In this document: positions 14,164 to 20,531 of the stretch, one piece after another
Layout: each line of letters opens with the position of its first letter
Position numbering within the stretch: position 1 is the stretch's first letter
Assembly: GCF_048453025.1 (NCBI RefSeq)
Contig: NZ_CP156677.1
Span: 952,613-976,612, forward strand
From: Phosphitispora sp. TUW77
Lineage (GTDB): Bacteria; Bacillota; Thermincolia; Thermincolales; UBA2595
Reading direction: 5' to 3'
Length of the DNA stretch: 24,000 nucleotides
Made by a program: the position numbers and the translations under genes
The notes under the pieces: generated by a model
Databases searched by the model: none
The model's input: the letters and a program-made list of their open reading frames with translations, nothing else
Told to the model about the DNA's origin: nothing

Positions 14164-14925
14164 ATGTATAGACCGGTAAACAGGAAATCACCGGGAATAT
14201 CGACTCGTTTGGCCTTCTTGCTGTTTTTTACTCTATACTACTGGAGTATTCACTTTATTTCAGGGAAAAGCAATCTGCAATTGAGCCAGATTGTCTTTGA
14301 TATTTTCGCAGGCGTATTTACCGGGGCAGTTACACATGTGGCAATAGCTAAGTTTTTTGGTCCCCTTTTGTTCGGGCGCGGCTTTTGCGGCTGGGTATGC
14401 TGGAATGCTTCAGTTTTCGAGATGCTCCCCATTAGGAATGCAAGAAAAGGAATTGCGGAAAAACGTCTTATATATAAATATGTGGTACTTATAATTGCCC
14501 TGGTTATTCCTGGGTTCCTTATTGCGGCAGGTTATATTATCCGAAGTCCGAAAGCCCAGTTTGAGTGGCTGTTGATAGAAAATGCTTTGATATATCTTAT
14601 AGGAATAATCCTGGCATTAGTTTTGGGTGACCGCCGGGCATTTTGCAAGTACTTATGTCCTGCGGGGGCGTTAATGACCCTGACATCTCCAAGGAGTATC
14701 CTGAAAATAGAAAAAAATCACTTGACTTGCAGCAATTGCCGCAGGTGTGAAGAAGTTTGTCCCATGGATGTGCCTATATTGGACTATATAAAAGAAGGAC
14801 AGCGAGTCTCACATCCGGAATGTATTTTATGTACCGAGTGTGTTAATAGCTGCCCAAGAAATTGCCTGACAGTGGGAATAGGAAAAAAGTCGGATACTAC
14901 TCCGGAGTTTGGCAAGTCTTTTTAA
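14164..14925 (+). CDS. Membrane-bound 4Fe-4S polyferredoxin (NapH/MauN-like)
   Basis: Several TM helices carry CGWVCW and CKYLCPAGA motifs. The C-terminus has CSNCRRCEEVCP and CILCTECVNSCP. Confidence 0.8.
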   Translation: MYRPVNRKSPGISTRLAFLLFFTLYYWSIHFISGKSNLQLSQIVFDIFAGVFTGAVTHVAIAKFFGPLLFGRGFCGWVCWNASVFEMLPIRNARKGIAEKRLIYKYVVLIIALVIPGFLIAAGYIIRSPKAQFEWLLIENALIYLIGIILALVLGDRRAFCKYLCPAGALMTLTSPRSILKIEKNHLTCSNCRRCEEVCPMDVPILDYIKEGQRVSHPECILCTECVNSCPRNCLTVGIGKKSDTTPEFGKSF

Positions 14926-15004: not shown

Positions 15005-15583
15005 ATGCAAAATATTTTTAAAGAATTCATCAGGTTGAATCAGTCACTGGCACTTTTGCCCCTAAAGGCCGTGCGTAAGCTCCTGGATGACAAAAATACT
15101 TCCGGCAAACAGATGGTGGATGTGGCAGAAGAGTTTGTCAGTACCCCATTTGTAGCTGCTGATAAGCTTATTGGTAAAGGATGCCATTGCTGTTCTGTAC
15201 AAGAAGACCCTTCCGGACAGCAACGGTCTGTCCGGAAGGGACGGGGTCCCAGTGCAGCAAATATTTTTGTTGACCCTGAAGTTACGGTTTTATCAGATGC
15301 CGAAACAAATCCTGAAGAGAGGAAAGCAGTGCTGTCAGTTACCGGCTTATTATGCGGCGGATGAGTTAGGCGTGTCAGGCAGACTCTGGAAGAGTTTGAA
15401 GGAGTAACCAAAGTAGATTTTCAACCGGCACAGGAAGAATTTGTGGTTTTTTATACAGCAGATTTGCCGCGAGGAGAAGAGTTTGTTAAGGCAATTAATG
15501 AAGTAATAAAATTTCCTGCTGTACGCAGCTTTTTAGGTGCAGTGGGTGATAGCCTGCATAATTCCAACGACATAGGACCATAA
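15005..15583 (+). CDS. Candidate selenoprotein: HMA-like (heavy-metal-associated) domain protein with a C-G-G-U motif; in-frame UGA at 15362-15364 read as Sec
   Basis: The ORF track stops at TGA after ...AVLSVTGLLCGG. The same frame then stays open for 72 codons to TAA 15581-15583 (VRRVRQTLEEFEGVTKVDFQPAQEEFVVFYTADLPRGEEFVKAINEV...). This continues an HMA beta-alpha-beta-beta-alpha-beta pattern with the TGA at the second Cys of CxxC. A hairpin follows at 15380-15398. ATG 15005 is preferred over GTG 14990 because of the GGTGA SD. Confidence 0.6.
15380..15398 (+). promoter_or_regulatory. SECIS-like stem-loop downstream of the in-frame UGA
   Basis: CAGACUCU-GGA-AGAGUUUG forms 8 bp (one G-U pair) with a G-rich apical loop. 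The stem starts 18 nt after the U of UGA, and 23 nt separate the UGA from the loop. U15375-A15403 and C15376-G15402 could extend it below an internal loop. Confidence 0.45.
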
Positions 15584-15626: not shown

Positions 15627-15818
15627 ATGATGAAAGTTGAAGTCATTGATAATGACTGTGTTAGCTGTGGTCTTTGCATCAGTACTTGCCCTGATGTTTT
15701 TGAATGGGGTGATGATGATAAGGCTGTGGCTAAAATCCTCGATGTGCCGTCTGATTTGGAAGACCTGGCCCATGAGGCTGTAGAAGAATGCCCCACGGGC
15801 GCCATTAAAGAAGAATAA
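15627..15818 (+). CDS. Small single-cluster [4Fe-4S] ferredoxin
   Basis: MMKVEVIDNDCVSCGLCISTCP....ECPTGAI, with the CxxCxxC...CP pattern. GAGGAAGCGAGGG lies upstream of ATG 15627. The ORF-track start at 15609 lies within that SD. Confidence 0.85.
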   Translation: MMKVEVIDNDCVSCGLCISTCPDVFEWGDDDKAVAKILDVPSDLEDLAHEAVEECPTGAIKEE

Positions 15819-15903: not shown

Positions 15904-15992
15904 TATTAAGGAGGAAAATTAGATTTGGGGAGAGAATAACAATGGCAATGAAAACCATATTTATATAAATGGTTAGTAAGGGGAGAACTGAT

Positions 15993-16394
15993 TTGTATAC
16001 TGACGGCAGGCATCTCAGGTTTAATGTTGTTATTGTTCTTGCTCTATTGAATTCGATAATAACATTAGCTTACTTTGTCCTGGTAGAACAGGGTATCCTT
16101 CAGCCGGCTTGTCTGCCGGAGGGTATCCGGGCAGCTGTATTTCCGATGGTACTTGTGGTTGTGGTTCCTATTGTTCTTGGTTCATATGGCCTGTATATGA
16201 GACGGATGTGGGGGCTGGGGTTTTTTACCATTGGAGGTGGCGGGTTCCTCTTTGCTTCATTAACAGGAATCATTTTTTCCGCAAAAAGTGATGTTTTTGG
16301 AATGTTGTTTTTCCTCTCGCTTTACTTGGTTTTATATAACATTATTGCTAATATTTATATCTGGATTTTTAGGTTTAATCTTAGAGATTTTTAG
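15993..16394 (+). CDS. Hypothetical 4-TM membrane protein
   Basis: Four hydrophobic spans. TTG 15993 has AAGGGGAG 7 nt upstream. The ORF-track ATG at 15969 lacks an SD. Confidence 0.5.
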   Translation: MYTDGRHLRFNVVIVLALLNSIITLAYFVLVEQGILQPACLPEGIRAAVFPMVLVVVVPIVLGSYGLYMRRMWGLGFFTIGGGGFLFASLTGIIFSAKSDVFGMLFFLSLYLVLYNIIANIYIWIFRFNLRDF

Positions 16395-16401
16395 CTAGAA
16401 A

Positions 16402-16429
16402 GTCCTCTGATGAGGCCTTTTTTTCTTTT
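16402..16429 (+). terminator. Weak rho-independent terminator
   Basis: Short stem gtcctc-tgat-gaggcc (one mismatch) followed by tttttttctttt. Confidence 0.4.
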
Positions 16430-16479
16430 ATTATTAAGGTATATGAAGAGACTTATGCAGTAATTTGGGAGGGAACTAT

Positions 16480-16782
16480 GTGGGAATAAAAAAACCTATT
16501 AACCCTAAACTGATTCCATTTATATCTGCTCCATTTTATATTTTTGGCATTTTTCTGGCAGCATTGAATTGGCAGCGCCTGGGGCGCCCTGAAAAAGCGC
16601 GCAGCACTATAAAGTGGGGGATAATCGGCTTAGTTTTGCTAATAATAATTGCCAGTTATTTCCCGTTGCAGCTATTGAAGGAAATGTGGTTTATTGGTGT
16701 GGGAATTAACATAGGCACAGGGATGGCCCTGAAAACCTTGCAAACTATTGAGTGTAGTAAGGGCGTGGAAAGGCCCGAATAA
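16480..16782 (+). CDS. Hypothetical small membrane protein
   Basis: GTG 16480 has GGGAGGG 5 nt upstream. 2-3 TM segments (FISAPFYIFGIFLAAL, GIIGLVLLIIIASYF). No family recognised. Confidence 0.5.
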   Translation: MGIKKPINPKLIPFISAPFYIFGIFLAALNWQRLGRPEKARSTIKWGIIGLVLLIIIASYFPLQLLKEMWFIGVGINIGTGMALKTLQTIECSKGVERPE

Positions 16783-16795
16783 AGAGGTGTTAGCT

Positions 16796-17275
16796 GTGAA
16801 ATTACATTGTTTTTGCCCAGATTTGACAGAGGAACAATTTGATAATATGGATTTAACAGAAATTGATCTCTCGGGGCGGTCCTTTTATATCTCAAAAATG
16901 CCAATGGTATCACACTTCCCCATGAATCCGGAAATCAAAATTCAAAAAACTCTTAAAGAAATAGAGGAAAAGGGATACAGGACGGTATCTCCTCTTTTTG
17001 TGCTTTTTGAGGACGGGCTTTTAATGGGTAATATAATGATTGAAATAGTTAAACCACCTGCAAAGGATAGTAATATCAAAACCTTTAACAAGCTCAGGCT
17101 TATAAGCAAAGCGTATAAAGGCCCTAAGCATTTAGTGCCTAAGGCACTGAAACAGTTTGATGGGTACCTGATCCTTAAACAAATAATCACGGCAGATTTT
17201 TTCTTTTGGTATCATTCATGTAAAGTTTGTGAAAAACAAAAAGGTGGTCGAACAATAATTCTTGCTAAAATATAA
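16796..17275 (+). CDS. Hypothetical cytoplasmic protein with a C-terminal CxxC
   Basis: GTG 16796 has AAGAGGTG 6 nt upstream. The ORF-track start at 16748 would overlap the previous gene. C-terminal segment YHSCKVCEKQKGGRTIILAKI. No confident family. Confidence 0.5.
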   Translation: MKLHCFCPDLTEEQFDNMDLTEIDLSGRSFYISKMPMVSHFPMNPEIKIQKTLKEIEEKGYRTVSPLFVLFEDGLLMGNIMIEIVKPPAKDSNIKTFNKLRLISKAYKGPKHLVPKALKQFDGYLILKQIITADFFFWYHSCKVCEKQKGGRTIILAKI

Positions 17276-17291
17276 AAGGAGCCTGCAGACA

Positions 17292-17936
17292 ATGGAAAAC
17301 TCCGCACCCGGCGTTATTCTTCAAATTTTGAATGAACTATATCCTAATCCACAGCCTGAACTTAATTTTGAAACTCCTTTTCAGTTACTGGTGGCTGCAA
17401 TTCTTTCGGCACAAACAACCGATAAGCAGGTAAATGCCATTACCGCCGGCCTGTTCAGGAAGTATTCTACACCACGGGAGTTTGCTCTTCTTACAGATGA
17501 AGAATTGGAGAAGGAAATTAAGAGCTGTGGATTGTATAAAAATAAGGCCAGAAATATTATTGCAGCCAGCAAAATTTTGTTAGAAAAATATGATTCCCGG
17601 GTGCCTGATGAATTTGCGGCATTGATATCACTCCCGGGAGTTGGGCGGAAGACAGCTAATGTAGTCTTGGCAAATGCCTTTGGAAAAGATGCTATTGCTG
17701 TGGATACACATGTTTTCAGGGTAGCCAACAGGCTGGGCTTAGCTGCTGCCGATACAACTGCAAAAACAGAAGACGACCTGATGAACGTTATCCCTAAGAG
17801 CGATTGGAATAGGGCTCATCACTGGCTGATTTTTCATGGACGCAGGGTTTGCAGGGCACAAAAACCCAAATGTCATGAGTGTCTTCTGAAAGACTACTGC
17901 AAATATTACGCCAGACAAGAAAAAAAGGGATTTTGA
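17292..17936 (+). CDS. nth: Endonuclease III (DNA-(apurinic or apyrimidinic site) lyase / glycosylase)
   Basis: HhH-GPD motifs ILSAQTTDKQVN and LPGVGRKTANVVL, catalytic D in VDTHVFRV, and a C-terminal Fe-S loop CRAQKPKCHECLLKDYC. ATG 17292 has AAAGGAG upstream. Confidence 0.95.
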   Translation: MENSAPGVILQILNELYPNPQPELNFETPFQLLVAAILSAQTTDKQVNAITAGLFRKYSTPREFALLTDEELEKEIKSCGLYKNKARNIIAASKILLEKYDSRVPDEFAALISLPGVGRKTANVVLANAFGKDAIAVDTHVFRVANRLGLAAADTTAKTEDDLMNVIPKSDWNRAHHWLIFHGRRVCRAQKPKCHECLLKDYCKYYARQEKKGF

Positions 17937-18026
17937 AAGAAAAAAATGAATATTGGTATTTGTATCCGGGAACAGCTCATATAATAAAATCATATGGATT
18001 TTGGAGGGATTTTTGGAGGTGCTGTT

Positions 18027-20531
18027 TTGCCGGAAATAAGAGAAGACATGATTACCGGAGATATGGTTTTAATTGCCACGGAAAGGAGTAAAAGGCCCCA
18101 GGATTTTAAATATGCTAATGAAAACTCAAAAGGTAGCAGTGGTTGTGTTTTCTGTTATGGCAATGAGACAGAAACTCCACCTGAGATTTTTGCGTTAAGG
18201 CCTGGTGGAGGACTACCTGACTCTCCTGGATGGATAGTCAGGGCCTTTCCTAACAAGTTTCCTGCTGTAACAGCAGAGGGTAACCCGGACTGTCATTATA
18301 TTGGAGGCAAAAAGGTCTCTAATGCAGTTGGAGCTCATGAGGTCATAGTCGACACACCGAACCATTATGAAACTTTTGGCCAACTATCCGATATCCATGC
18401 CGAACAAGTCATGGAGACAATAGTTTCAAGATACCGTTATTTTTCGGAACTCCCGCAAATTAAGTATATCCAGATTTTTAAAAACAGCGGGGCTGCTGCC
18501 GGGGCATCTCTTGAACACAGTCATTGGCAGTTAATTACGCTTCCTTTGGTTCCTGAAACAGTTGCCAGAGAGATAAAAGTGACAGAAAGGTTTTGGGAAA
18601 ACAATGGAGAATGCGCCTATTGCAGAATGATTTCTGAAGAAATAAAAGATGGTTCCAGGATTATCGAACAAACAAAGGATTTTGTAGTATTAACACCTTT
18701 TGCTTCGCGTTTTCCCTATGAAACATGGATAATTCCCACCAGGCATGAACCATTTCTCGAAAAGCTCAACATTGACGAAATAAAAACACTGGGAAGGATT
18801 CTCAAACGGTCAATAAGAAAGCTTGAGCGAACTCTATGCCGTCCGCCTTATAACCTGATAATTCATGCTTGCCCAACAGGCATACAATGCCATGGGAACC
18901 ATTGGCATATTAAAATCATGCCAAGGATTTCTACTGTAGCAGGTTTTGAAATAGGTTCAGGCATACATATTAACCCTGTGTCACCTGAAGCAGCTGCAGA
19001 TTTGCTTAGAGAAGCTGAGCCTTATATATGTAATGACAGCAGGATGAATGGAGTGAAGCCAATGATTGAAAGAAAAAAACTCAAAATTCTTTATGTGGCA
19101 TCAGAGGTATCCCCTTTTGCTAAAACCGGAGGGCTTGCCGATGTAGCGGGCTCACTGCCACACTCTTTGGCCATGATGGGGCATGATGTTAGAGTAGTAA
19201 TGCCAAGATATAAGATGATATCTCAACAGCTTAATACAATATATGATTTTCCTGTGACAATTAGCGGGCGGAAAGAGGCAGCTATAATCCGTGAGCACCG
19301 TATCTCGTTAGATAATAATGACAGTAATATGATATTACCGGTTTACTTTGTGGATAACTACAATTATTTTGATCGGGATAATCTATACTGTTATTTTGAT
19401 GAGGTGGAACGATTTGCCTTTTTCTGCCGGGCTGTTATAGAAATGCTGCCCGGAATCGGTTTTCAACCTGATATAATTCATTGCAATGACTGGCAAACCG
19501 GCCCGATTCCCATTCTCTTGAAGGAACAGTACAGTGAAAATAATTTTTACCGGAATACTGCTGTTTTATTTACTGTCCACAATATGCATTATCAGGGCAA
19601 TTATCCCAAAGACTGTCTCCGCTTGCTGGGACTTGATGACAAGTACTATAATGCTGAGAGTCTTGAGTTTTATGGGGATATCAGTTTTCTCAAGGCAGGA
19701 CTGGTATATTCAGATATAATTAATACCGTCAGCAGGACTTATGCTAAAGAAATTCAAACACCTGATTATGGTGAACGCATGGATGGACTGCTGCGAAAGC
19801 GTTCTGGTGATTTGTTCGGCATAGTGAACGGTATCGACTATGAAGAATTTGATCCTGCCAAAGATTCTCATCTAGTACAGAATTATGATTATACTTCTGT
19901 TGAACTTAAGCGGAAAAACAAATATTTCCTGCAGAAAGCAATGAAGCTTCCGCAAGGCGACCAGCCGCTTATTGCCCTTGTTTCCAGGCTGGTAGACCAG
20001 AAGGGGCTGGACCTTTTGGCGGAAATTTATGACCGTTTGATTGCTGACGATATCCAGGTAGTGGTCCTAGGGGCAGGGGATCAGTATTATGAAAGTTTTT
20101 TCAAAGAAATGGCCGGAAAATATCCTGATAAAACAGCTGTCCATATCGGGTTTAACGCCTCACTGGCACAACAAATTTATGCAGGGGCTGATATGTTTCT
20201 GATGCCTTCCAGGTTTGAACCGTGCGGACTGGGGCAGCTTATCAGCTTAAGGTATGGTTCAATTCCGATTGTACGAGCGACCGGGGGCCTTGCAGATACA
20301 ATTATGGATTATAATCACGGTGAGCGTACCGGAAATGGTTTTGTTTTTGCAAATTATAGGTCTGAAGAATTGCTGGATGCTGTTCACCGTGCTTTAGATA
20401 TATACCGGAGAAGGCCTGAACTTTGGATGGAACTTGTCAGGAAAGCCATGTCGGAAGATTTTTCCTGGTCTGCCTCAGCCCTCGAATATGTCAGATTATA
20501 TTTCGTTGCATTGGCAAAAAAATCGGATTAA
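18027..20531 (+). CDS. Fusion protein: N-terminal GalT-like HIT-family hexose-1-phosphate nucleotidyltransferase (or NDP-glucose phosphorylase) plus C-terminal glycogen/starch synthase (GT5)
   Basis: GalT part: Zn motif CVFCYGNE, HEVIVDTPNH, active-site HSHWQ (nt 18516-18530) and a C-terminal PEAAADLLRE. GlgA part starts at about nt 19062: KILYVASEVSPFAKTGGLADV (KTGGL at nt 19122-19136), HCNDWQTG, and a C-terminal GT-B half with MPSRFEPCGL. There is no stop between the two parts. TTG 18027 (GGAGGTG 5 nt upstream) is preferred. ATG 17994 is an alternative and would be nearly leaderless behind TATAAT 17980-17985. Confidence 0.85.
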   Translation: MPEIREDMITGDMVLIATERSKRPQDFKYANENSKGSSGCVFCYGNETETPPEIFALRPGGGLPDSPGWIVRAFPNKFPAVTAEGNPDCHYIGGKKVSNAVGAHEVIVDTPNHYETFGQLSDIHAEQVMETIVSRYRYFSELPQIKYIQIFKNSGAAAGASLEHSHWQLITLPLVPETVAREIKVTERFWENNGECAYCRMISEEIKDGSRIIEQTKDFVVLTPFASRFPYETWIIPTRHEPFLEKLNIDEIKTLGRILKRSIRKLERTLCRPPYNLIIHACPTGIQCHGNHWHIKIMPRISTVAGFEIGSGIHINPVSPEAAADLLREAEPYICNDSRMNGVKPMIERKKLKILYVASEVSPFAKTGGLADVAGSLPHSLAMMGHDVRVVMPRYKMISQQLNTIYDFPVTISGRKEAAIIREHRISLDNNDSNMILPVYFVDNYNYFDRDNLYCYFDEVERFAFFCRAVIEMLPGIGFQPDIIHCNDWQTGPIPILLKEQYSENNFYRNTAVLFTVHNMHYQGNYPKDCLRLLGLDDKYYNAESLEFYGDISFLKAGLVYSDIINTVSRTYAKEIQTPDYGERMDGLLRKRSGDLFGIVNGIDYEEFDPAKDSHLVQNYDYTSVELKRKNKYFLQKAMKLPQGDQPLIALVSRLVDQKGLDLLAEIYDRLIADDIQVVVLGAGDQYYESFFKEMAGKYPDKTAVHIGFNASLAQQIYAGADMFLMPSRFEPCGLGQLISLRYGSIPIVRATGGLADTIMDYNHGERTGNGFVFANYRSEELLDAVHRALDIYRRRPELWMELVRKAMSEDFSWSASALEYVRLYFVALAKKSD

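What the first reader, a model, noticed from the sequence alone, without database searches (positions are those of the whole stretch)
15005..15583. In-frame UGA at the second Cys of an HMA-type CxxC loop: candidate unannotated selenoprotein
The called ORF ends at TGA 15362-15364, right after ...RKAVLSVTGLLCGG. The same frame then continues for 72 sense codons to TAA 15581-15583, which is unlikely by chance in an AT-rich sequence. The joined peptide AVLSVTGLLCGG-U-VRRVRQTLEEFEGVTKVDFQPAQEEFVVFYTADLPRGEEFVKAINEV follows the heavy-metal-associated (ferredoxin-like beta-alpha-beta-beta-alpha-beta) layout. In that layout the metal loop is normally CxxC followed by a helix and a GV..V.V strand, and the TGA falls exactly on the second Cys, giving CGGU. 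Sec replacing one Cys of a CxxC motif is the usual pattern in bacterial selenoproteins. A standard gene caller would output a truncated 124-aa hypothetical protein plus about 220 nt of false intergenic DNA, as the ORF track does. The N-terminal 100 aa (with a CHCC motif) is unrecognised, so the whole architecture may be undescribed.
Basis: partly seen in the sequence, partly recalled or inferred. Interest (0 to 1): 0.8.

Follow-up and report, generated by a model that had tools for sequence, protein, structure and literature searches.

The report
Unannotated selenoprotein with metal-binding HMA domain
A gene that databases record as two small "hypothetical proteins" is almost certainly one 192-residue protein in which an in-frame UGA encodes selenocysteine at a metal-binding site, founding a small, previously unrecognised selenoprotein family in anaerobic Firmicutes.

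Summary
ORF 15005-15361 stops at TGA 15362-15364, and the same frame stays open for 72 codons to TAA 15581-15583. Fifteen independent relatives, down to 30% identity, all carry TGA at this exact column and never TAA, TAG or a sense codon. These include Thermincola MAGs, Calderihabitans maritimus and a sulfate-reducer-like contig. The downstream frame is under the same purifying selection as the upstream part (pN/pS 0.37 vs 0.33). No conserved start codon follows the TGA. With U read as C, all 14 full-length members match Pfam HMA, and the TGA aligns with the second Cys of GMTCxxC, giving C-x-x-U. A 7-8 bp hairpin with a GGA loop lies 23 nt after the UGA. It meets all four published bacterial SECIS criteria, shows compensatory changes in 4 of 8 pairs, and suppresses synonymous variation. 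No Cys-containing or uninterrupted homolog was detected in 5.8 billion proteins. NCBI annotates two fragments (119 aa and 46 aa). The N-terminal about 60 residues are a predicted helical hairpin with no known relative, and the "CHCC" motif is not conserved. Two things were not shown: Sec machinery in this genome (untestable here) and the metal or redox function.

The parts
15005..15583 (+). Complete selenoprotein coding sequence: 192 codons including Sec120, then TAA.
   Evidence: The read-through translation is conserved over its full length in 14 relatives. pN/pS is 0.33 upstream and 0.37 downstream of the TGA.
15362..15364 (+). In-frame UGA, inferred selenocysteine codon (residue 120).
   Evidence: The codon is TGA in 15 of 15 distinct sequences down to 30% identity, and never TAA, TAG or a sense codon. 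TGA is an ordinary stop for 8 of 24 other ORFs in the window.
15353..15364 (+). C-G-G-U motif (Cys117-x-x-Sec120), the metal-binding loop of the HMA fold.
   Evidence: It aligns with GMTCxxC of ATP7B, CopA, CopZ and MerP, with the TGA on the second Cys. C117 and the TGA column are the only invariant Cys-type positions in the family.
15380..15398 (+). SECIS-like hairpin: an 8-bp stem (15380-15387 paired with 15391-15398) and loop GGA (15388-15390), 23 nt after the UGA.
   Evidence: 96.4% of cells are paired in 14 sequences, and 4 of 8 pairs show compensatory changes. No shuffle out of 500 reaches the observed covariation, and slid controls reach at most 64%. It meets all four bSECIS criteria of PMC13188914. 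Synonymous codon identity is 0.83 here against 0.42 elsewhere, p=0.0007.
15329..15499 (+). HMA (heavy-metal-associated, ferredoxin-like) domain, residues 109-165, split by the TGA.
   Evidence: Pfam PF00403 E=3.8e-9, 37.2 bits against a cutoff of 24.8; 14 of 14 members match. The family profile matches HMA domains in the PDB with E down to 5e-19.
15008..15178 (+). N-terminal antiparallel two-helix hairpin (residues 2-58), family-specific.
   Evidence: The AlphaFold2 model places helices at 2-26 and 32-58 with pLDDT 77-84. There is no Pfam or NCBIfam match, and no structural match with E below 1.
15185..15268 (+). Variable, predicted-disordered linker (residues 61-88) holding the non-conserved CHCC motif and a strain-specific 13-bp palindrome (15208-15240).
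   Evidence: pLDDT is below 50. The columns are gapped and variable. The palindrome has a free energy of -25.4 kcal/mol and is not conserved.
15500..15580 (+). Conserved C-terminal tail after the HMA profile (..FP.VR..LG..G..), function unknown.
   Evidence: P171 and R174 are invariant; L177 and G181 are nearly so. The tail lies outside the Pfam HMA match.
15627..15818 (+). Small single-cluster [4Fe-4S] ferredoxin gene 43 nt downstream; probable co-transcribed partner.
   Evidence: Pfam Fer4_13/Fer4_15. It sits directly downstream in 12 of 15 contexts. No terminator-like site lies between the two genes.
14164..14925 (+). Upstream NapH/MauN-like membrane ferredoxin-type protein; a frequent but not universal neighbour.
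   Evidence: Pfam Fer4_5. NCBIfam TIGR02163 scores 78.6 bits, below its cutoff of 213. It is present upstream in the window, L001, L003, L005, L014 and L015, and absent in L004, L016-L018 and L020.

Best explanation
Window 15005-15583 is a single gene for a 192-residue selenoprotein of Phosphitispora sp. TUW77.

Proposed mechanism of translation: when the ribosome reaches UGA at codon 120, the hairpin at 15380-15398 recruits SelB carrying Sec-tRNA(Sec). The hairpin has loop GGA and lies 23 nt past the UGA. Selenocysteine is then inserted instead of terminating, and translation runs on to TAA 15581.

The product has four parts:
- an N-terminal two-helix hairpin;
- a flexible linker;
- a C-terminal HMA (beta-alpha-beta-beta-alpha-beta) domain whose metal loop reads Cys117-Gly-Gly-Sec120;
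- a conserved tail.

The Cys/Sec pair most likely chelates a soft metal ion, as the CxxC of CopZ, MerP and the ATPase HMA domains does. Alternatively it cycles as a selenenylsulfide redox couple, possibly served by the ferredoxin encoded 43 nt downstream.

Shown: the conserved UGA, the coding constraint across it, the conserved and covarying hairpin, HMA homology, and the position of the UGA on the second Cys.

Inferred: actual Sec insertion, the ligand or redox role, and the partnership with the ferredoxin.
For: - TGA is at the same column in 15 distinct sequences from at least two orders of Clostridia, down to 30% identity.
- The downstream frame shows purifying selection equal to the upstream part, with a third-position excess and no in-frame stops.
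- No conserved start codon follows the TGA.
- All 14 read-throughs match Pfam HMA.
- The TGA aligns with the second Cys of GMTCxxC in solved structures.
- The hairpin is 96.4% paired, 4 of 8 pairs are compensatory, and 0 of 500 shuffles reach the observed covariation. Synonymous variation is suppressed over it.
- All four published bSECIS criteria are met in 14 of 14 sequences.
- TGA is an ordinary stop elsewhere in the window, so there is no global recoding.
- All 31 database entries that match the family profile, and the distant family members from the exhaustive N-terminal search, are truncated at this point. None is full length.
- Thermincola potens JR is listed among Sec-utilising organisms, with 10 selenoproteins.
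- HMA-type selenoproteins already exist as a kind.
Against: - The Sec machinery (selA, selB, selC, selD) of TUW77 could not be examined. None lies in the window, and the strain's paper does not mention selenium.
- No Rfam SECIS family matches.
- The folding energy of the hairpin in single sequences is not better than shuffles (z from -1.5 to +0.4).
- No Cys-containing ortholog exists to form the classical Cys/Sec pair within the family.
- The motif reads GLLC rather than the GMTC typical of Cu(I) HMA domains, so the metal is uncertain.
- There are no protein-level data.
Confidence: 0.88

Rival explanations
1. The TGA is a genuine stop. The region holds two genes, a 119-aa protein and a separately initiated small ORF (for example GTG 15443, 46 aa), as in the deposited NCBI annotation.
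For: NCBI annotates exactly these two hypothetical proteins. Gene callers placed 61-72-aa ORFs after the stop in L004, L005, L015, L016 and L017.
Against: Protein-level conservation and purifying selection start at the first codon after the TGA. The codon after the TGA is GTT, GTC or GTA in 7 of the 12 sequences examined, and the first in-frame start ranges from codon 1 to codon 53. The stop would cut an HMA domain between strand beta1 and helix alpha1. A true stop would be expected to drift among TAA, TAG and TGA, yet it is TGA in 15 of 15.
Confidence: 0.02
2. The UGA is read through without selenocysteine. Either a near-cognate tRNA inserts Trp, Cys or Arg, or a programmed read-through is stimulated by the downstream hairpin.
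For: Sequence analysis alone cannot identify the inserted residue. The Sec machinery of this genome was not examined. The hairpin is short.
Against: The UGA falls exactly on a metal-liganding Cys position of a CxxC motif, the classic Sec site. The hairpin fits the SelB-type bSECIS model in loop sequence and spacing. A related genus decodes Sec. If Cys or Trp were acceptable, sense-codon variants should exist, and none is found in 5.8 billion proteins.
Confidence: 0.06
3. The gene is a pseudogene, or the TGA is a sequencing or assembly error.
For: One metagenomic ortholog (L013) carries an additional upstream frameshift.
Against: The same TGA occurs in 15 independent assemblies, including a PacBio HiFi complete genome. 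Both halves are under purifying selection.
Confidence: 0.01
4. The selenoprotein reading stands, but the function differs. The C-x-x-U pair is not a metal chaperone site. Instead it is a selenenylsulfide redox centre taking electrons from the adjacent ferredoxin or the NapH-like module.
For: A small ferredoxin is directly downstream in 12 of 15 contexts, and Fe-S proteins lie upstream in many. Reviews note that most CxxU/UxxC selenoproteins are redox proteins. GLLC replaces the Cu-type GMTC.
Against: The fold is HMA, whose characterised members bind metals. The closest selenoprotein model is a 'metal-binding (seleno)protein'. The ferredoxin is absent in the three most divergent contexts.
Confidence: 0.3

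Closest known systems
NCBIfam NF041115 'UxxU_metal_bind', metal-binding (seleno)protein (listed as 'putative mercuric reductase', UxxU, in PMC13188914 Table 1)
   Same: It is an HMA-fold bacterial selenoprotein with Sec in the metal-binding xxxx loop. It is the best NCBIfam hit for all 14 members.
   Different: The score is 35 bits against a cutoff of 95. That family has two Sec residues (UxxU) and is a single domain of about 74 aa. This family has one Sec in the second position (CxxU), an N-terminal extension of about 105 residues, and a conserved C-terminal tail.
Sec-containing cation-transporting P-type ATPase (TIGR01525, UxxC; PMC13188914 Table 1)
   Same: Sec replaces a Cys of the CxxC motif in an HMA domain.
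   Different: In that family Sec is the first residue of the motif, and the domain is fused to a large membrane ATPase. This protein is soluble, 192 aa long, and has no ATPase domain. The CopA and ZntA models hit only through the HMA region, at 11-15 bits.
CopZ / MerP / Atx1-type metallochaperones (Pfam PF00403; PDB 1cpz, 6ff2, 1afi)
   Same: The beta-alpha-beta-beta-alpha-beta HMA fold is the same, and the liganding pair is at the same positions.
   Different: Those proteins use Cys-Cys, a GMTC context, and about 70 aa with no extensions. All CopZ and MerP NCBIfam models score far below their cutoffs (21-31 bits against 62-112).
GrdA (glycine reductase selenoprotein A)
   Same: It is a CxxU selenoprotein family reported to lack known Cys-containing homologs, as this family appears to.
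   Different: The fold and pathway are unrelated. The resemblance concerns only the evolutionary pattern of obligate Sec.

Membership tests
Bacterial selenoprotein gene (Sec-UGA + bSECIS) | In-frame UGA conserved among orthologs, with a conserved coding frame downstream. | tested here: met
   TGA is at the same column in 15 of 15 sequences. pN/pS downstream is 0.37 against 0.33 upstream.
Bacterial selenoprotein gene (Sec-UGA + bSECIS) | Stem-loop right after the UGA that fits the bSECIS model: loop 3-9 nt, upper stem 4-16 bp, G in the first two loop positions, 16-37 nt spacing, MFE <= -7.5 kcal/mol (PMC13188914, Fig. 2). | tested here: met
   In 14 of 14 sequences the loop is GGA, GGC, UGA or GGU, the stem is 6-8 bp, the spacing is 23 nt, and the MFE is -7.7 to -15.9. 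Covariation is reported.
Bacterial selenoprotein gene (Sec-UGA + bSECIS) | UGA aligns with Cys in homologs (Cys/Sec pair). | tested here: met
   This is met at superfamily level: the TGA aligns with the second Cys of CxxC in HMA structures. Within the family itself no Cys form was detected.
Bacterial selenoprotein gene (Sec-UGA + bSECIS) | The host genome encodes selA, selB, selC (tRNA-Sec) and selD. | not testable with these tools
Indirect support: Thermincola potens JR is listed as Sec-utilising with 10 selenoproteins.
Bacterial selenoprotein gene (Sec-UGA + bSECIS) | Selenium demonstrated in the protein. | not testable with these tools
   This needs 75Se labelling or mass spectrometry.
Pfam HMA (PF00403) | Score at or above the gathering threshold over the domain. 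| tested here: met
   37.2 bits against 24.8 over profile positions 1-57 of 62; 14 of 14 members match.
Pfam HMA (PF00403) | Two thiol(ate) ligands in a C-x-x-C loop between beta1 and alpha1. | tested here: met
   C117-G-G-U120, with Sec in place of the second Cys.
Cu(I) chaperone CopZ (NF033794, NF033795, TIGR00003) | Score above the curated cutoff, and the GMTCxxC context. | tested here: not met
   26-31 bits against cutoffs of 62-95. The motif is G-L-L-C.
NF041115 UxxU metal-binding selenoprotein | Score >= 95 bits, two Sec residues (UxxU), about 74-aa single domain. | tested here: not met
   35.4 bits, with a best E of 5.9e-10 among the 14 members. The protein has a single TGA, a CxxU motif and 192 aa.
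Sec-containing P-type ATPase (TIGR01525, UxxC) | HMA domain fused to an E1-E2 ATPase, with Sec as the first residue of the motif. | tested here: not met
   There is no ATPase region, and only HMA-limited hits to the CopA and ZntA models. Sec is the second ligand.

The most novel reading that the evidence does not exclude
This is an HMA family in which selenocysteine is obligatory. Every detectable member, across at least two orders, has UGA, and no Cys form was detected in 5.8 billion proteins. That would imply chemistry that cysteine cannot replace. One possibility is handling of a specific soft metal or metalloid, or of selenium itself. Another is a low-potential selenenylsulfide relay fed by the co-transcribed ferredoxin. 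In either case the novel N-terminal helical hairpin would act as a docking or dimerisation module. This would be a new functional use of the HMA fold rather than another CopZ-like chaperone.
Probability: 0.2. Interest if true: 0.7.

Novelty: new variant of a known kind. Interest (0 to 1): 0.52.

Why it matters
First, it corrects a systematic annotation error. RefSeq and GenBank record this gene as a truncated 104-134-aa hypothetical protein in every carrier, sometimes with a spurious small ORF after it. The carriers include two cultured organisms, Phosphitispora sp. TUW77 and Calderihabitans maritimus KKC1.

Second, it adds a family to the catalogue of prokaryotic selenoproteins. The layout is distinctive: helical hairpin, linker, HMA domain with CxxU, and tail. 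The family also has the unusual property that no Cys-containing counterpart was detected. That makes it a good test case for why some sites require Sec.

Third, it gives a compact, well-conserved Firmicute SECIS example. A 19-nt hairpin is embedded in the codons for T-L-E-G-F, and RNA pairing visibly constrains both synonymous and non-synonymous sites.

Fourth, TUW77 is culturable and already has proteomic and RNA-seq data, so the prediction can be tested directly.

Tried and rejected
- Rfam, with gathering thresholds on the whole window and permissive thresholds on 15300-15500, gave no SECIS or other credible hit. Bacterial SECIS elements are diverse and poorly covered, so this is uninformative.
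- Single-sequence folding z-scores for the hairpin region are not significant. The case rests on comparative data instead.
Because structure prediction carries the same restriction, the full-length protein was not modelled. Only the N-terminal 119 residues were modelled.
- The fold search of the N-terminal model returned only generic helical hairpins with E above 1.
- Literature searches for selenium use in Phosphitispora or TUW77 found nothing. The TUW77 paper has no 'selen' term and no supplementary text is held. The P. fastidiosa enzyme paper has none either. The Calderihabitans co-mention was irrelevant. Haft & Tolstoy 2025 is not held.
- A scan of the window for a second selenoprotein, which would be independent evidence of Sec decoding, found only spurious frames.
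- The search with the 72-aa downstream peptide found only NCBI's 46-aa fragment.
- Considered and rejected: an independent downstream ORF, a pseudogene or sequencing error, global TGA recoding (TGA ends 8 of 24 window ORFs), and a functional role for the CHCC motif (not conserved).

Full report
**Observation.**
An ORF starts at ATG 15005; GTG 14990 is the longest-ORF start.
- The ORF stops at TGA 15362-15364, after ...AVLSVTGLLCGG. The same frame then runs for 72 sense codons to TAA 15581-15583.
- An exact protein match identifies the source as Phosphitispora sp. TUW77: a 119-aa 'hypothetical protein' on a 2,878,163-bp contig. This is the genome size published for that strain.
- The open frame alone is weak evidence. 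Its chance probability from composition is about 0.008. The window also contains eleven other, spurious, TGA-bridged frames with at least 35 open codons.
- The window is about 42% GC.

**Comparative evidence for a single gene.**
- All 24 database homologs in the first search were 112-134 aa long and covered only the first 62% of the read-through.
- DNA was fetched for relatives from genomes and metagenomes. Every distinct sequence has TGA at the same column (C-G/S-G-TGA-V). The frame then continues for 72-78 codons to a TAA.
- An exhaustive HMMER scan of 1.84 billion representatives with the N-terminal 119 residues found more distant members at 29-47% identity. These also end two residues after the Cys...VTGLLC-HT, -GL, -DA, -EA, -GA, -SG.
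- DNA for four of these distant members again shows TGA, followed by V-x-RV-x-x-AL-x-x-F and the rest of an HMA domain. They are L016, L017, L018 and L020. L016 is Calderihabitans maritimus KKC1 (WP_088553085.1). L020 is a contig carrying AprA and Sat.
- The carriers span Peptococcaceae (Eubacteriales) and Calderihabitantaceae (Neomoorellales).

**Coding constraint and the independent-ORF alternative.**
- Downstream of the TGA, mean pN/pS is 0.37, against 0.33 upstream.
- Differences concentrate at third codon positions: 0.57 against 0.27 and 0.24 at the first two positions.
- The frame has no stops, against 1-9 in the other frames.
- No start codon is conserved after the TGA. The next codon is GTT, GTC or GTA in 7 of the 12 sequences examined, and in L001 the first in-frame start is codon 53.
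- The separate-ORF reading is what NCBI annotates: a 46-aa protein from GTG 15443. The points above show that it is not tenable.
- TGA ends 8 of 24 ordinary ORFs in the window, so the codon is not globally reassigned.

**Identity of the protein.**
- With U written as C, the protein matches Pfam HMA (PF00403). E is 3.8e-9, at 37.2 bits against a gathering score of 24.8, covering residues 109-165 across the TGA. All 14 full-length members match.
- Against solved structures, the TGA column aligns with the second Cys of GMTCxxC in ATP7B, CopA, CopZ and MerP domains. The family profile reaches E = 5e-19.
- The motif is therefore C117-G-G-U120. These two positions are the only invariant Cys-type columns.
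- The CHCC motif lies in a gapped, variable linker and is absent from divergent members.
- Residues 1-105 match nothing in Pfam or NCBIfam.
- An AlphaFold2 model built from 24 sequences gives two long helices (2-26 and 32-58, pLDDT 77-84). It also gives a disordered stretch (61-88) and a beta hairpin (92-113) that leads into the HMA domain.
- Foldseek against the PDB finds only generic helical hairpins with E above 1.
- A conserved tail (FP-x-VR-x-x-LG) follows the HMA profile.

**The recoding signal.**
- A hairpin starts 16 nt after the UGA, at window 15380-15398: CAGACUCU-GGA-AGAGUUUG. It is part of the minimum-free-energy fold in the seven sequences folded individually.
- In 14 sequences, 96.4% of cells are paired and 4 of 8 pairs show changes on both sides. 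No shuffle out of 500 reaches the observed covariation. Sliding the partner by even one column drops pairing to 64% or less.
- The window itself carries one compensatory pair, C-G to U-A. It arises from ACC to ACU (synonymous) together with GGG to GAG (Gly to Glu).
- L016 carries another compensatory pair, from CUG to UUG with GGG to AGG.
- Codons under the hairpin have twice the synonymous codon identity of the rest of the gene (0.83 against 0.42; Mann-Whitney p = 0.0007).
- The published bacterial SECIS model has four requirements (PMC13188914, Fig. 2):
  - an apical loop of 3-9 nt;
  - an upper stem of 4-16 bp;
  - a G in the first two loop positions;
  - 16-37 nt between the UGA and the loop, with MFE <= -7.5 kcal/mol.
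- All 14 sequences comply. The loop is GGA, GGC, UGA or GGU, the stem is 6-8 bp, the spacing is 23 nt, and the MFE is -7.7 to -15.9.
- Rfam has no matching family. Single-sequence z-scores are unremarkable. The support is therefore comparative.

**Sec-decoding capacity.**
- The window has no tRNA and no sel genes, and the tools gave no access to the rest of the genome.
- The TUW77 paper does not mention selenium.
- Indirect support comes from Thermincola potens JR. It appears in the table of Sec-utilising organisms with 10 known selenoproteins (Peng et al. 2016, Table S2), and most family members come from Thermincola-labelled genomes.
- This remains the main untested link.

**Absence of Cys forms.**
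- The exhaustive N-terminal search and a profile search with the 14-member full-length alignment against 5.8 billion proteins both found no member longer than 134 aa. In the profile search all 31 hits cover 62% of the profile or less.
- The 72-aa downstream peptide retrieves only NCBI's 46-aa fragment.
- The family therefore appears to be Sec-only. This pattern has been noted for GrdA but is unusual, since nearly all selenoproteins have Cys homologs.

**Context.**
- A single-cluster [4Fe-4S] ferredoxin (Fer4_13/15) lies 43 nt downstream, with no predicted terminator between the genes.
- The ferredoxin occupies this position in 12 of 15 contexts. It is absent in the three most divergent contexts.
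- A NapH/MauN-like membrane Fe-S protein and an aldo-keto reductase with an Fe-S domain lie upstream in many loci.
- This suggests a redox link but does not prove one.

**Comparison with known families.**
- HMA-related selenoproteins are already catalogued. They include the UxxU 'metal-binding (seleno)protein' (NF041115), the UxxC P-type ATPase (TIGR01525) and MbdU.
- The present family scores 35 bits against NF041115, whose cutoff is 95. It also has one Sec rather than two, places it in the second ligand position, and has extra N- and C-terminal modules.
- No model in NCBIfam release 20 (June 2026) or in Pfam covers it.
- The 2026 review's table has no HMA CxxU entry.

**Verdict.**
This is an unannotated selenoprotein gene founding a small family in anaerobic Clostridia.
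- The decoding mechanism is conventional, and the kind (Sec in an HMA metal loop) is known. The family, its architecture and its apparent lack of any Cys counterpart are new.
- I rate it a new variant of a known kind, of moderate interest.

Noticed in passing
window 15443-15583: NCBI's annotation of TUW77 contains a 46-aa 'hypothetical protein' (P0042) that corresponds to the GTG-15443 ORF. It is a fragment of the selenoprotein's C-terminal half. Gene callers likewise placed spurious 61-72-aa ORFs after the TGA in L004, L005, L015, L016 and L017.
   Followed up: yes
window 15208-15240: A perfect 13-bp inverted repeat with a 7-nt loop (CCCTTCCGGACAG-CAACGGT-CTGTCCGGAAGGG, -25.4 kcal/mol as RNA) lies inside the gene's variable linker. 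It is flagged as terminator-like on the minus strand. It is not conserved as such in the orthologs.
   Followed up: partly
window 17994-20531: A single 845-aa ORF joins a GalT-like/DUF4921 domain to a glycogen (starch) synthase. In L001, L003 and L005 these are two adjacent genes (about 347 aa and about 495 aa) that overlap by 8 nt. This is either a gene fusion in TUW77 or a frame difference.
   Followed up: no
whole window: The window is 40-44% GC throughout, whereas the TUW77 genome paper states 55.3% G+C for the 2,878,163-bp chromosome. Either the published figure is wrong or this region is atypical.
   Followed up: no
window 17262-17936; L016 5306-5944; L020 8661-9293: Endonuclease III (HhH-GPD, an Fe-S DNA glycosylase) is immediately adjacent to the selenoprotein gene in the two most divergent genomes, and lies within 2 kb in the others. 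A family-4 UDG often lies just upstream (L004, L005, L014, L015, L017). This could be ancestral synteny or a functional link.
   Followed up: no
L013 175-757 (Ga0247259_111605): This metagenomic ortholog has a frameshift about 20 codons before the Sec codon, and its motif reads C-S-G-U. It is a probable assembly error or a decaying copy.
   Followed up: partly
L017 6568 and L018 2929: In these two divergent members the terminal stop of the full-length gene is also TGA, whereas it is TAA in the other 13. The same mRNA would therefore carry one UGA that is decoded and one that terminates.
   Followed up: no
window 15969-16782: Two conserved small genes of unknown function (141 aa, apparently membrane; 105 aa) follow the ferredoxin in nearly all syntenic loci. 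Neither has a Pfam or NCBIfam match.
   Followed up: no
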